From: a virus
Strand: one strand, 5' to 3'
Virus genome (UHGV): UHGV-0123874
Length of the DNA stretch: 40,222 bases
Positions within the stretch are counted from its first letter, which is position 1, and each line of letters starts with the position of its first letter. Shown in pieces: positions 3,001-6,000 of this stretch. A program made the position numbers.

Positions 3001-6000
3001 TCATTTAATTTGCTCCAGATGCAAGGAATCGCCGCAGCGTGGCTACGGTGAATTTTGGGCATAAAAAAACCCAGCCGAAGCTGGGTTGTCGTGTTGGTTA
3101 TCTGTCAGTAGTTATGTACTGAAGGAGGTAATTCTTTATTCTTAAGTCTCATCCATGCGGAAAGATTCGTTGGTCCGTCTGGCTCATTGATATCAACATC
3201 TCGTGTGTGATTGATTAAAACGTCTCTCGCCATTCCGATAACATACGAGAACTCATGACCGTAGTCGTAGCATCTGCAGGAATAGTTCGATTGAATTTGT
3301 TTTAGCGCCGGATACAGTTCGCGGAATAATGCCTGTGAGCGGTTGGCATAATCCCATAGCCATACAAGGCTGTTTGCTTCTTTTGCAGAAAGCTCGTTGG
3401 TTTTCTTCTCTTGTTTGCCGATGAACTCACCTTCAAGCACTACCCTGTGGATGTACTCTACGGCCAGCGGGATTTGTTCAATTGAAAGTTCATCAATGCT
3501 GTCAATACCAAAACGCTGATGAACCATATTGTATGCATCGTCATAGCGAAGTCCTTTCTTTCCTACCAGCATGTTTACTGCATCGCGTAGCGGCGTGCGT
3601 TCAGCTACTGAAGTTTTACCGCCAATAGCCTTCCTCTCTTGTGTGGCAGTAACCATTGCGTCATATGCGCGGATAACCTTCAGCGCAAATGCTGCGCTAA
3701 TCCACATGGCGTAGGAGTAAACAAGCTCCTTGCACACGTATGTTCCACCATATCTACCTTTCTTAGAAATGACGGGATTCTTATTCTGCATATCCGCAGA
3801 ATTAAAAATTTCATTAATCAATTCAATAGTTTCATTTCTACGCATGAAGAAAGCTGGCTGATGTTTTTCCTCCTTTCCAGACGCTACATGAAGGTCATTA
3901 AGCGAGTAACGACCCTCTGAATCCATATGAATCTTGACGTCAGAAATGATGATGCTATTAGTGCAATTTACAGCTGACTTTGCTAAGCTTGACATATCAA
4001 TAATACCTCGTAAGTTTTGTTGATACCGAAGCCCTGACTGTTCCCGCAGTTGGGGCTTCAACTTTCTGCTCTATCAGTTATATCTTTCCCTTCGTATACT
4101 TCACCTATATTGCTAATGCTGGCAGAACATCCAAGATGCTTGTATCTTATGATGTCCAACACGCAGTCACTACACAGCATCCGACCTGTTTCTTTAGAGT
4201 AAATGTATGTTTGATCAGTGTCTGATTCGCTAATGCCGCAGAAACAACATTCTTTACTCATACCATCACCCCCTCTCTCTTCAAGCTGTCCAGCACCCGT
4301 TTAATTACTTCTGCGCTAAACGATCGACACTCTTCCTTTGCTTTCTCTTCAAGGATTTTTTCTAACTTCTCTGGCATACGCAGTGTTTTTACCTTCATTG
4401 CATCCTCCGCTGTATGTGGTACGCATACATAGTATTTAGGTACGCATTGATAGTCAATAGATACCTACATATCCTGTGGTAAAAAATTATTCAGGATGCG
4501 CCGATGTCTGATCGTAAGTACAAAAACCCTCAAGTGAATCTGAGGCTTCCTGTAGAGATAAAGGAACGTCTTATTGAACTGGCTGAGGCTAATTCTCGTT
4601 CATTAAATGCTGAGATGGTAGCAGCACTTGAGGCATGGACTGAAAAAAATAAACATATTCAAGCACTAGATCTTGCAACTATAGCATCGCGGTTGATAGA
4701 GCTTGAGCATGAGGTTGAGAAGTTAAAATGTATGCATGGCAACAGTGAAAAATGAAACGTATCGCTATTTTGTTAATATTGTTCTTCTCTACAATAGTTT
4801 TCGCCAAACCAAAATCAGATAATGGCGATCTTAAAGGCCTGCAAGAACTCATGATAACTTCGAAATTTGCTGGCATGTGCGGCACAATCAAACAAATGGC
4901 AACATTTCAAGAATCAACAAAAATGCCTGGCGGAGATGAGTTCTTACAGCGTTTTCTGACCACAGAGCAAGCAAGACTAGGAATGAATCCACAGGAATTT
5001 CTTGAAGCATGCCAGAAGTCAATTTCAGCTTATACCAATTATTACAATCTAACTTCTGATAAATAATAGAAAGGATTTTATAAATAACTTTATGAAAAAA
5101 TCACTATTAATTATCCCGCTTCTGCTGGCTGGATGCGCAAAAGTAAGTGACTACCAAGCAAGTTGCGAACAACGCTATCCAAAGCTTAGTGATATGGCTA
5201 ATTGCCTTGATGCCAGCGTGAAGAACGACTCACGCATGGCATCAGCACCAACACCTAAGCTGTATGTCCTTGCTGCGAAGATGCTCGGGCAAGGTGTCGA
5301 TCAAGGCAAGATAAGTGACGCACAGGCAAGACTTGAGCTACAGAATCTTTATGTTCAATTACAAAGCCAAGAACAAGCCCAACAAATAGCACAAAGCCAA
5401 GCATTCCAGCAGGCTTTATTGAATTATCAGGCTGTAAACACAATGCAAGCGATCGAGCAAAAAGCGCGCCAGCCTGTTATAACTCAACATTACCCAACAC
5501 GCGTTGACACATATACAAACTGCAATTCAGGATTTGGAAACACGGTAACATGCAACAGTAGCAGTAATATCAGGTAGTTATATCTTATCTTTTATTGCTG
5601 TTCTGCTGTAATTTGGCTTGAAAGTATAGGGCGTATCGCATTTGCAGCATTATTTAGCGCTCTTTCATAAGCTGGCGTTCCAGTTTTAGTGTTTGCCAGG
5701 CGTAAGAGAGCATTCCTTGCTGCTTTGGACTCATACAAGCGCATCATTGCACCAAAACCAGCCTCAAGCCCCATTGATACGCCAAGGGTCGCAGTTGCGC
5801 CAATCGTCCTTATCCTGTTGGCTTGCGATTGCCCCGTCTGAGTTACTACATTTGCGGTGTCTGACCTTGCTGTTTGCTGTAGAACTTCATGAAGAGCATC
5901 AAGCTCTTTCATGTGCTTTCCAGAAAAAATAGTGTTGTAAATTTCACCGCCTGACTGAGATTTCAGCTTATTAACTTCAGTGATGAACTTGGCTGGAGAG

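What the first reader, a model, noticed from the sequence alone, without database searches (positions are those of the whole stretch)
4504..5577. Lysogen-side operon mnt -> signal-peptide protein -> lipoprotein in the sieA slot
The Mnt-like repressor gene is followed on the same strand, with an ATGA overlap, by a 104-aa protein with a cleavable signal peptide and then a 161-aa lipoprotein (lipobox LLAGC, Gln-rich, Cys-containing C-terminus). In P22 this interval holds sieA. Envelope-located proteins co-expressed with a maintenance repressor are classic superinfection-exclusion candidates (compare T5 Llp and Cor-type lipoproteins), but these two have no similarity I can recognise.
Basis: partly seen in the sequence, partly recalled or inferred. 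Interest (0 to 1): 0.6.

Follow-up and report, generated by a model that had tools for sequence, protein, structure and literature searches.

The report
Exported-protein genes replacing prophage sieA
A P22-like E. coli prophage lacks the known injection-blocking gene sieA and instead carries, behind its Mnt repressor gene, a secreted protein and an outer-membrane lipoprotein of unknown families, which are untested candidates for blocking infection by rival phages.

Summary
They sit in the "ant moron" of a P22-like prophage, between arc/ant/tailspike and the gene-16 ejection protein. This stretch is 99.9% identical to E. coli O104:H4 prophages.

Neither exported protein matches any Pfam, NCBIfam, PADLOC or PDB entry, by sequence or by fold. 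Both belong to real, conserved families. The lipoprotein family is confined to this slot of P22-like prophages of Enterobacterales and is present in 186 of 5426 complete E. coli genomes. The secreted family is a wider prophage accessory-gene ("moron") family.

New here: a 27-nt block upstream of P22 sieA (edge of the annotated promoter, leader, ribosome-binding site) precedes 13 unrelated genes in related phages. Twelve of these families have a hydrophobic N-terminus, consistent with membrane or exported proteins. SieA, this lipoprotein and a variant of the 104-aa protein are among them. In this window the two genes lack the block and ride on the mnt operon.

An exclusion function is therefore supported by position and by cassette equivalence only, and remains untested. 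Best reading (about 0.45): prophage-expressed envelope factors that block entry of P22-like phages.

The parts
4429..4475 (.). Divergent promoter-like pair and operator-like inverted repeat between arc and mnt. The + site (Pmnt-like) is TTGATA-17-TATCCT at 4447-4475. The - site (Pant-like) is at 4457-4429. The inverted repeat has 18-nt arms at 4433-4450 and 4454-4471.
   Evidence: Consensus scan and repeat finder. The layout parallels the annotated Pant/Pmnt/Oarc/Omnt region of P22. Function is inferred, not shown.
4504..4755 (+). mnt: Mnt-type ribbon-helix-helix maintenance repressor, 83 aa.
   Evidence: Pfam Arc E=2.9e-10, above the cut-off. phrog_795 E=3e-24. 42% identity to the P22 Mnt N-terminus. 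94% DNA identity to annotated CUS-3 mnt.
4752..5066 (+). ORF104: Sec-type signal peptide (aa 1-18, nt 4752-4805) followed by an 86-aa mature periplasmic protein. The model is a three-helix bundle. C43 and C87 are conserved, and the loop TKMPGGDEF is nearly invariant.
   Evidence: ATGA overlap with mnt. phrog_19844, unknown function, E=7e-64. Alignments. AF2 model with pLDDT 78. No Pfam, NCBIfam, PADLOC or PDB match.
5067..5091 (+). 25-bp spacer with an AAGGA 17 nt upstream of the ORF161 ATG. It lacks the conserved sieA-type leader found in front of this gene in other phages.
   Evidence: Alignment of upstream regions. The window has no copy of the block even when 8 mismatches are allowed.
5092..5577 (+). 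ORF161: lipoprotein precursor with its lipobox Cys15 at nt 5134-5136. Residue +2 is Ala, which predicts sorting to the outer membrane. The model shows an N-terminal helical bundle (aa 18-100, with C25 and C38), a Gln-rich long helix (76-125) and a C-terminal Cys144/Cys154 beta-hairpin of low confidence.
5555..5609 (.). A/U-rich hairpin that straddles the convergent stop codons of ORF161 (5577) and gene 16 (5592). No T-run follows it on either strand, so it is not a clear intrinsic terminator.
   Evidence: RNA fold (the region as a whole has z=-1.25, not significant). Terminator scan.
5592..7439 (-). Context: gene-16-type DNA-ejection protein, convergent with ORF161 and 14 bp away.
   Evidence: 74% identity to P22 gp16. 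RefSeq names it 'DNA transfer protein' or 'P22-gp16 family'. gp20 (Inj_translocase) and gp7 follow it.
3105..4398 (-). Context: the arc (4258-4398), orf67 (4058-4261) and ant (3105-4061) arm of the immI-like region, divergent from mnt.
   Evidence: Pfam Arc, and KilA-N plus P22_AR_C.

Best explanation
The three genes form one prophage-expressed transcription unit driven by the mnt promoter. Mnt keeps the antirepressor off. ORF104 is translationally coupled to mnt and is exported by Sec into the periplasm, where it folds as a small three-helix bundle held by a disulfide. ORF161 is lipidated at Cys15 and carried by Lol to the inner leaflet of the outer membrane. From there its helical head, long Gln-rich helix and C-terminal Cys-loop face the periplasm. 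Together they take the place of the missing inner-membrane protein SieA. They act as superinfection-exclusion factors that stop incoming phages after adsorption, at the envelope-crossing step. For the lipoprotein, which is found only in P22-like prophages and always next to gene 16, the most likely target is the outer-membrane or periplasmic part of the gp7/gp20/gp16 ejection-protein conduit, or the host component that conduit needs. ORF104 also occurs in other phage types and has a nearly invariant loop. Its target is more likely a conserved periplasmic host or phage function. Shown here: the gene anatomy, the export signals and their family-wide conservation, the slot specificity, and the cassette equivalence with sieA. 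Inferred: transcription from Pmnt, the localisation of both proteins, and the whole exclusion mechanism.
For: (1) Orientation and coupling. All three genes run antisense to the late operon, with an ATGA overlap, a 25-bp gap and no promoter or terminator signal between them. The ATGA junction recurs in more than 20 related loci. (2) Export signals. 80 of 80 full-length homologues keep a lipobox and none has Asp at +2. 140 of 142 ORF104 relatives have a hydrophobic N-terminal core, and the Cys pairs are conserved. (3) No SieA homologue was detected in the window. Only 22 of 66 sequenced P22-like phages carry sieA (PMC10883804). (4) Position. In 62 gp7-seeded slots, the gene next to gene 16 and convergent with it is the lipoprotein in 13, a 129-aa secreted protein in 6, a 1-TM protein in 4, ORF104 in 2 and SieA in 2. 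The lipoprotein is gp16-proximal in 13 of 13 cases and never occurs together with SieA. The same position holds in Morganella and Xenorhabdus prophages. (5) Shared upstream block. The block CATGGTATCCTGCACAAAACTAAGGAG lies upstream of P22 sieA, inside the 85 bp that suffice for functional sieA expression. It precedes the lipoprotein gene, an ORF104-family variant, SieA and 10 other unrelated ORFs. Twelve of the 13 families, 111 of 117 ORFs, have hydrophobic N-termini. The chance expectation for the block in the fetched DNA is 0.004. (6) Transcription from this same slot has exclusion activity in another P22-like prophage, BTP1 (PMC7067206). SieA itself blocks DNA injection by acting on gp16/gp20.
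Against: There is no experimental or expression evidence for either protein, and literature and accession searches found nothing. The case rests on position alone. Every other cassette family is also of unknown function, so SieA is the single characterised precedent. In this window neither gene has the sieA-type leader. The SD-like AAGGA of ORF161 lies 17 nt from its ATG, so its expression level is uncertain. The same lipoprotein sits next to gp16 types that are 34 to 99% identical to the window's, so it is not matched to a particular ejection-protein type. ORF104 relatives occur in siphovirus-like, Pseudomonas and Vibrio prophage contexts, which argues against a P22-specific target for that protein. 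Fold searches gave no functional lead. The C-terminal half of the lipoprotein model has low confidence.
Confidence: 0.45

Rival explanations
1. The two proteins are lysogenic-conversion factors that benefit the host but have nothing to do with phages. Examples would be serum or complement resistance, envelope stress tolerance or colonisation, in the manner of lambda Bor/Iss or plasmid TraT.
For: Both are exported morons expressed from the prophage side. ORF104 relatives sit at varied positions in unrelated prophages of Pseudomonas and Vibrio. The N-terminal domain of the lipoprotein is highly conserved across genera, which suits a conserved host target. The operon is carried by the pathogenic O104:H4 lineage.
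Against: The lipoprotein family is confined to one slot of one phage type, always abutting the ejection-protein gene. It is interchangeable with SieA behind the same leader. It does not match the Bor, TraT, Iss or any other Pfam model.
Confidence: 0.25
2. The functional product is RNA. The mnt-ORF104-ORF161 transcript reads through into the 3' end of the convergent gene 16 and acts as an antisense RNA against the late transcripts of superinfecting phages, as STnc6030 does in BTP1. On this view the proteins are secondary.
For: Only 14 bp separate the convergent stop codons, and no clear intrinsic terminator follows ORF161. In BTP1 an antisense RNA from this same slot, complementary to the 3' end of the injection gene, excludes BTP1 (PMC7067206).
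Against: Both ORFs are under strong protein-level conservation, with export signals and Cys pairs kept across genera. The same lipoprotein gene abuts very different gene-16 alleles, so antisense complementarity cannot explain why it is conserved. The two mechanisms could coexist.
Confidence: 0.07
3. The proteins serve the phage's own lytic cycle rather than the lysogen. They might modulate lysis, or protect progeny from being inactivated on cell debris or outer-membrane vesicles. The second is one role of T5 Llp.
For: They are envelope proteins. sieA is reported to be up-regulated during prophage induction. There are weak, signal-peptide-only similarities to Rz1-like spanin models.
Against: The genes are antisense to the late operon and lie far from the lysis cassette. 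The spanin hit has E=0.052 and covers residues 5-36 only. P22-like phages adsorb to O-antigen, which a periplasm-facing lipoprotein cannot mask.
Confidence: 0.08
4. One or both ORFs are decaying or non-functional cargo.
For: The 'ant moron' is in rapid flux and contains degraded genes in some phages (PMC2629481). ORF161 here has lost its usual leader.
Against: Both ORFs are intact and full-length, with all invariant residues present. The three-gene arrangement is kept at 97 to 100% identity in 18 complete E. coli genomes and 9 IMG/VR contigs. Substitutions are mostly synonymous.
Confidence: 0.03

Closest known systems
P22 SieA (inner-membrane superinfection-exclusion protein; Leavitt et al. 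2024, PMC10883804)
   Same: It occupies the same genomic slot, next to gene 16, convergent with it and antisense to the late operon. In sister phages the lipoprotein gene and an ORF104-family variant follow the same 27-nt promoter-edge/leader/SD block as sieA. All are prophage-side envelope proteins, and they are mutually exclusive with SieA in the sampled slots.
   Different: There is no sequence similarity. SieA is a polytopic inner-membrane protein, whereas these are a soluble periplasmic protein and an outer-membrane lipoprotein. If they exclude phages, they must act in a different compartment. In this window they are expressed from the mnt operon, not from PsieA.
Cor (phi80/N15/HK022) and T5 Llp: outer-membrane lipoproteins that inactivate the receptor FhuA
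   Same: They are small phage-encoded lipoproteins with Cys pairs, expressed to prevent superinfection.
   Different: There is no homology. The PHROG Cor model scores E=0.078 over the signal peptide only, and Pfam gives no hit. At 146 mature residues ORF161 is two to three times larger and mostly helical. P22-like phages adsorb to O-antigen rather than FhuA, so simple receptor masking of the Cor/Llp kind is unlikely.
Ltp of Streptococcus phage TP-J34 (lipoprotein that blocks DNA injection by binding the tape-measure protein)
   Same: It is a prophage-encoded, membrane-anchored, largely helical lipoprotein that targets an ejected phage protein after adsorption. This is the closest mechanistic analogue to what is proposed for ORF161 (from my own knowledge; the paper is cited as ref. 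9 in PMC10883804).
   Different: It comes from a Gram-positive host. No sequence or fold match was found. The target here would be the gp7/gp20/gp16 conduit, not a tape-measure protein.
[quoted passage not shown]
   Same: A fixed site with conserved flanking and expression sequence carries many unrelated, mutually exclusive cargo genes (concept as in PMC13586616, listed).
   Different: Here the cargo is single small envelope proteins rather than cytoplasmic multi-gene defence systems. None is recognised by PADLOC. The conserved element is a 27-nt leader and ribosome-binding site that directly abuts the start codon.
BTP1 STnc6030 antisense RNA
   Same: It is a lysogen-expressed transcript from the gene-16/tailspike slot that runs antisense into gene 16 and has exclusion activity.
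   Different: It acts as RNA. The window instead has two conserved protein-coding genes.

Membership tests
Arc/Mnt ribbon-helix-helix repressors (P22 Mnt type) | N-terminal RHH DNA-binding domain | tested here: met
   Pfam PF03869 Arc at 40.3 bits against a cut-off of 20.4, over residues 7-50. 42% identity to P22 Mnt residues 5-40.
Arc/Mnt ribbon-helix-helix repressors (P22 Mnt type) | Divergent from an arc-ant operon across a short operator/promoter region | tested here: met
   arc (4258-4398) and ant (3105-4061) lie on the opposite strand. The 105-bp intergenic region holds face-to-face promoter-like sites and an 18-nt inverted repeat.
Arc/Mnt ribbon-helix-helix repressors (P22 Mnt type) | Represses Pant and maintains lysogeny | not testable with these tools
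   This needs genetics or DNA-binding assays.
Bacterial lipoproteins (Lgt/LspA/Lnt substrates) | Signal peptide ending in a lipobox [LVI][ASTVI][GAS]C | tested here: met
   LLAGC with Cys15. A lipobox is present in 80 of 80 full-length homologues.
Bacterial lipoproteins (Lgt/LspA/Lnt substrates) | Outer-membrane sorting (no Asp at +2) | tested here: met
   Residue +2 is Ala here, and Ala, Val, Thr or Leu in all homologues. The actual localisation was not measured.
Sec-exported periplasmic proteins | n-region with K/R, hydrophobic core, small residues at -3 and -1 | tested here: met
   MKRIAILLILFFSTIVFA|K. 140 of 142 family members have the hydrophobic core, and 137 of these have K/R before it. 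The test is rule-based; SignalP was not available.
SieA family (types A to C) | Polytopic inner-membrane protein with the C-terminal FxRYPxEAxxFNK motif, homologous to P22 or HS1 SieA | tested here: not met
   tblastn of P22 SieA against the window finds no hit at E<=10. ORF104 and ORF161 have only an N-terminal hydrophobic segment. Type B and C sequences were not tested directly.
SieA family (types A to C) | Located between genes 16 and 9, next to gene 16, behind the PsieA leader | tested here: inconclusive
   The position is met. The leader is present in front of the lipoprotein gene and an ORF104 variant in other phages, but it is absent in this window.
Cor superinfection-exclusion lipoproteins | Sequence homology to Cor | tested here: not met
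   phrog_1119 scores E=0.078 over residues 1-29 only, the signal peptide.
Other known envelope morons: T5 Llp, Ltp, lambda Bor/Iss, TraT, Rz1 spanins | Match to the family profile or fold | tested here: not met
Known anti-phage defence systems (PADLOC) | Match to any PADLOC model | tested here: not met
   No hit for any of the three proteins at E<=1.
Superinfection-exclusion proteins in the functional sense | Expression reduces infection by an incoming phage at or before DNA entry | not testable with these tools
   This needs plating, potassium-efflux and DNA-entry assays.

The most novel reading that the evidence does not exclude
The sieA site of P22-like phages would be a dedicated 'expression socket'. 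A conserved promoter-edge/leader/SD block would present at least 13 unrelated small proteins, 12 of them envelope proteins. Each would be an independent solution for jamming the trans-envelope DNA-delivery conduit at a different layer: outer membrane, periplasm or inner membrane. This prophage would have stacked two of them, a periplasmic ORF104 and an outer-membrane ORF161, onto the mnt operon for layered exclusion. If that is true, the cassettes are a ready-made panel of natural inhibitors for dissecting how the ejection proteins gp7, gp20 and gp16 cross the Gram-negative envelope.
Probability: 0.3. Interest if true: 0.75.

Novelty: new variant of a known kind. Interest (0 to 1): 0.55.

Why it matters
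How short-tailed phages build a DNA conduit across the Gram-negative envelope from ejected proteins is still open, and SieA is so far the only natural inhibitor used to probe it. This locus offers two further candidates that would act in other compartments, the periplasm and the outer membrane. By extension it offers about ten more unrelated envelope proteins that sit behind the same leader. All of them can be tested with the same simple galK-insertion and plating assays that were used for SieA. The operon is also carried by the E. coli O104:H4 outbreak lineage. The lipoprotein gene is in 3.4% of complete E. coli genomes, so it may shape susceptibility to P22-like phages in therapy or typing. 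If the proteins prove unrelated to phage exclusion, the finding reduces to two more uncharacterised prophage morons.

Tried and rejected
- Profile searches of both proteins gave nothing beyond unknown-function PHROGs. These covered Pfam, NCBIfam, PADLOC and PHROGs, and Pfam was also run on 42 distant ORF104 relatives.
- A weak NCBIfam GspK hit for ORF161 (19 bits against a cut-off of 130) and one source's name 'GspK' for a homologue were rejected as Gln-rich helix noise.
- PDB sequence searches found nothing.
- The spanin and Cor similarities are confined to the signal peptide and were rejected.
- The idea that the two genes are an obligate pair was rejected, because they assort independently.
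- The idea that the lipoprotein is matched to a gp16 type was rejected.
- A search for an internal promoter for ORF161 inside the 3' end of ORF104 found none by consensus.
- The search for related loci with the broad ORF104 alignment failed because it had no conserved stretch. The closer alignment was used instead.
- Literature and accession searches for the proteins, for O104:H4 locus tags and for a described 'socket' found nothing relevant.
- SieA types B and C were not tested by sequence, because I did not retrieve those sequences.
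Full report
**What is there**

The window is a complete P22-like (Lederbergvirus-type) prophage genome. From left to right it carries:
- a tailspike gene (635-3004, minus strand; Head_binding domain plus an S74 chaperone domain);
- ant (3105-4061), a 67-aa Cys-rich ORF (4058-4261) and arc (4258-4398), all on the minus strand;
- on the plus strand, mnt (4504-4755), ORF104 (4752-5066) and ORF161 (5092-5577);
- then, convergently, the ejection-protein genes 16, 20 and 7 (5592-9544).

The stretch 4400-5650 is 99.9% identical to prophages of E. 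coli O104:H4 outbreak strains. There RefSeq calls the three genes 'Arc family DNA-binding protein', 'hypothetical protein' and 'lipoprotein'.

**Are they real genes?**

ORF161 has 97 homologues, all 153-162 aa and all in Enterobacterales: Escherichia, Salmonella, Citrobacter, Klebsiella, Serratia, Yersinia, Pectobacterium, Morganella, Providencia and Xenorhabdus. Cys15, C25, C38, C144 and C154 are invariant. All 80 full-length members have a lipobox and none has Asp at +2. By the established +2 rule this predicts Lol-dependent sorting to the outer membrane.

The VSe13 copy differs at 10% of nucleotides but only 4% of residues.

ORF104 has few close relatives. An exhaustive profile search, however, found 287 clusters of proteins of about 100 aa, including ones from Pseudomonas fragi and Vibrio fluvialis. 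They share the motif K-x2-G-x-C-G-x3-Q-M-x2-FQ-x2-TKM-x-GGDEF-x2-RF-x2-TE-x-ARLG and a second Cys. Of 142 members of 90-135 aa, 140 have a hydrophobic N-terminal core and 129 have exactly two Cys beyond residue 25.

**What do they resemble?**

Nothing known.
- Pfam, NCBIfam, PADLOC and PDB sequence searches are empty. PHROGs places both proteins in families of unknown function.
- The AF2 model of ORF104 (pLDDT 78) is a three-helix bundle.
- The AF2 model of ORF161 (pLDDT 67.5) has a confident helical N-domain, a 50-residue Gln-rich helix and a low-confidence C-terminal hairpin.
- Similarity to Cor and to spanins is limited to the signal peptide.

**Context**

The slot is the 'ant moron' of P22-like phages. 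It has been described as highly variable and full of genes of unknown function (PMC2629481). In P22 it reads mnt, orf59a, terminator, PsieA, sieA. [quoted passage not shown] Only 22 of 66 sequenced P22-like phages have it (PMC10883804). The window has no detectable SieA homologue.

The two exported genes are independent modules.
- Phages Gally, vB_EcoP-720R6 and VSe13 have the lipoprotein gene alone.
- Many prophages have mnt plus an ORF104 allele without the lipoprotein.
- In Morganella prophages the lipoprotein gene is the only gene between tailspike and gene 16.
- In Xenorhabdus it lies within a five-gene plus-strand cluster in the same slot.
- ORF104 alleles of 72 to 100% identity always start at the mnt stop codon.
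- In three prophages with none of the P22-type ejection or tailspike genes, which appear siphovirus-like, an ORF104 homologue follows a longer Mnt-like gene that is divergent from an ant-like gene. Four further homologues sit in other prophage contexts.

The lipoprotein gene is in 186 of 5426 complete E. coli genomes, always on the chromosome. This ORF104 allele is in 18.

**Survey of the slot**

I seeded 80 IMG/VR loci with the conserved gp7 protein and reconstructed 62 complete slots between gene 16 and the tailspike. Eleven are empty. In 20, an mnt-type gene is the first gene after gene 16, and in 17 of these it is the only gene in the slot.

In the rest, the position next to gene 16 and convergent with it is filled by one of a set of alternatives:

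| Gene next to gene 16 | Slots |
|---|---|
| The lipoprotein | 13 |
| A 129-aa secreted protein | 6 |
| A single-pass protein | 4 |
| ORF104 | 2 |
| SieA | 2 |
| A two-TM peptide | 1 |

The lipoprotein is gp16-proximal in 13 of 13 cases and never occurs with SieA. The one locus with both the lipoprotein and ORF104 has the window's arrangement.

**The shared leader**

Aligning upstream regions showed that the sequence in front of P22 sieA...TTTTTTCATGGTATCCTGCACAAAACTAAGGAGGTTGGTGTG, is shared with the regions in front of several other genes. These are the lipoprotein gene (VSe13, an E. coli strain and IMG/VR loci), the 129-aa secreted protein and others.

The 27-nt block starts 3 nt inside the annotated PsieA and runs through the Shine-Dalgarno sequence. 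It lies within the 85 bp that sufficed for functional sieA expression.

Allowing up to 5 mismatches, the block occurred 36 times in the loci then in hand, against 0.004 expected by chance. It was always followed by an ORF, and every one of those ORFs has a hydrophobic N-terminus.

An independent exact-pattern scan of IMG/VR returned 120 further loci before reaching its cap. Of these, 117 have a complete ORF directly after the block. The ORFs fall into 13 unrelated families:

| Family after the block | Loci |
|---|---|
| 109-aa single-pass coiled-coil protein | 20 |
| 129-aa secreted protein | 20 |
| Second 109-aa single-pass protein | 13 |
| SieA | 12 |
| The lipoprotein | 11 |
| 62-aa two-TM peptide | 11 |
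| 75-aa two-TM peptide | 7 |
| 140-aa protein that looks cytoplasmic | 6 |
| 149-aa protein | 4 |
| ORF104-family variant | 4 |
| 106-aa protein | 4 |
| 116-aa three-TM protein | 3 |
| YobH-like 68-aa protein | 2 |

Twelve of the 13 families, 111 of 117 ORFs, have a strongly hydrophobic N-terminus. Apart from SieA, none has a known function.

In the window itself the block is absent even at 8 mismatches. ORF104 is fused to the mnt stop codon and ORF161 follows 25 bp later. Here both cassettes therefore depend on upstream transcription, most simply from the Pmnt-like site at 4447-4475.

**Interpretation**

The evidence shows a prophage-side tricistronic unit that encodes a repressor, a periplasmic protein and an outer-membrane lipoprotein. 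Both exported proteins belong to families that elsewhere occupy the sieA expression site. That makes superinfection exclusion at the envelope the most economical reading, which I put at about 0.45.

The lipoprotein is restricted to P22-like phages and abuts gene 16. I infer a target in the outer-membrane or periplasmic part of the ejection-protein conduit, or in a host factor that the conduit needs. The same lipoprotein sits next to gp16 alleles that are 34 to 99% identical to the window's, and its N-domain is highly conserved. Both facts point to a conserved target, such as gp7 or a host component, rather than the hypervariable gp16 or gp20.

ORF104 has a wider phage range and a nearly invariant loop. 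A generic periplasmic target is more likely for it.

**Rivals**
- Host-fitness conversion factors unrelated to phages (0.25).
- An antisense-RNA effect of read-through into gene 16, as shown for BTP1 STnc6030 (PMC7067206). Only 14 bp and no clear terminator separate the convergent genes (0.07).
- A role in the phage's own lytic cycle (0.08).
- Decaying cargo (0.03).

**Novelty and limits**

I found no paper on either protein or on the shared leader. The kind of thing is known: morons in the ant-moron slot, envelope exclusion proteins such as SieA, Cor, Llp and Ltp, and defence hotspots with swappable cargo. The protein families and the leader 'socket' appear to be undescribed.

Everything functional is inference. 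No expression, localisation or phenotype data exist. The signal-peptide calls are rule-based. The promoter role of the block is inferred from its overlap with the annotated PsieA and from the published 85-bp construct. The loci sampled are mostly E. coli-type prophages from IMG/VR.

Noticed in passing
Related loci, e.g. L007:2332-2358 (minus strand, upstream of P22 sieA), L003:3965-3991, L041:4944-4970, L080 and L137-L256: A conserved 27-nt block, CATGGTATCCTGCACAAAACTAAGGAG, spans the edge of PsieA, the leader and the SD. It directly precedes 13 unrelated ORF families in P22-like prophages, and 12 of them have hydrophobic N-termini. The window itself has no copy.
   Followed up: yes
window 1-77: The first ~77 bases match 4583 enterobacterial plasmids and thousands of chromosomal sites at 89 to 99% identity, with no annotated feature under the match. 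This looks like an insertion-sequence end or another widespread repeat at the edge of the prophage.
   Followed up: partly
window 78-563 (+): A 161-aa protein made of tetratricopeptide repeats (Pfam TPR_1/TPR_2, E about 1e-23) lies just downstream of the tailspike gene on the opposite strand. It may be another prophage-side accessory gene.
   Followed up: partly
window 4058-4261 (-): A 67-aa Cys-rich ORF (CCFC...CSDC, zinc-ribbon-like) is wedged between arc and ant, with 4-nt overlaps at both ends. It has no Pfam hit. P22 has the sar antisense RNA in this region instead. The same ORF recurs at 99% identity in L020, L021 and L030.
   Followed up: partly
window 635-3004 (-): The tailspike combines the P22 head-binding domain with a C-terminal Peptidase_S74 intramolecular chaperone domain of the endosialidase type. 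It differs from the O104:H4 prophage tailspike even though the neighbouring operon is identical.
   Followed up: no
window 5555-5609: A long A/U-rich hairpin straddles the convergent stop codons of ORF161 and gene 16. No T-run follows on either strand, so termination of the mnt operon before gene 16 is doubtful.
   Followed up: partly
L031:3984-4415 and ten other loci: A different 143-aa lipoprotein (MKRII..LSGCATIVGDETQ) lies in the same slot but on the late-operon strand. In three of the sampled slots it sits between this lipoprotein gene and mnt.
   Followed up: no
P0104 and P0107: Some ORF104 relatives look like recombinants. Their N-terminus is that of the 'socket' allele (MKRWVIGAFCFL...), while the C-terminal half is near-identical to the mnt-coupled alleles, in P0104 to the window's own allele.
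   Followed up: no
P0188: A 3291-aa metagenomic protein matched the ORF104 profile in 30 separate stretches, all at profile positions 14-48. This is probably a repeat or hydrophobic-segment artefact. It was not examined.
   Followed up: no
L039:5362-5547 (-): In a Pseudomonas-type prophage the ORF104 homologue lies next to a CsrA/RsmA-like gene (MLILTRRVGETIRI...) and near RecT and exonuclease genes. This context is quite different from the P22-like slot.
   Followed up: no
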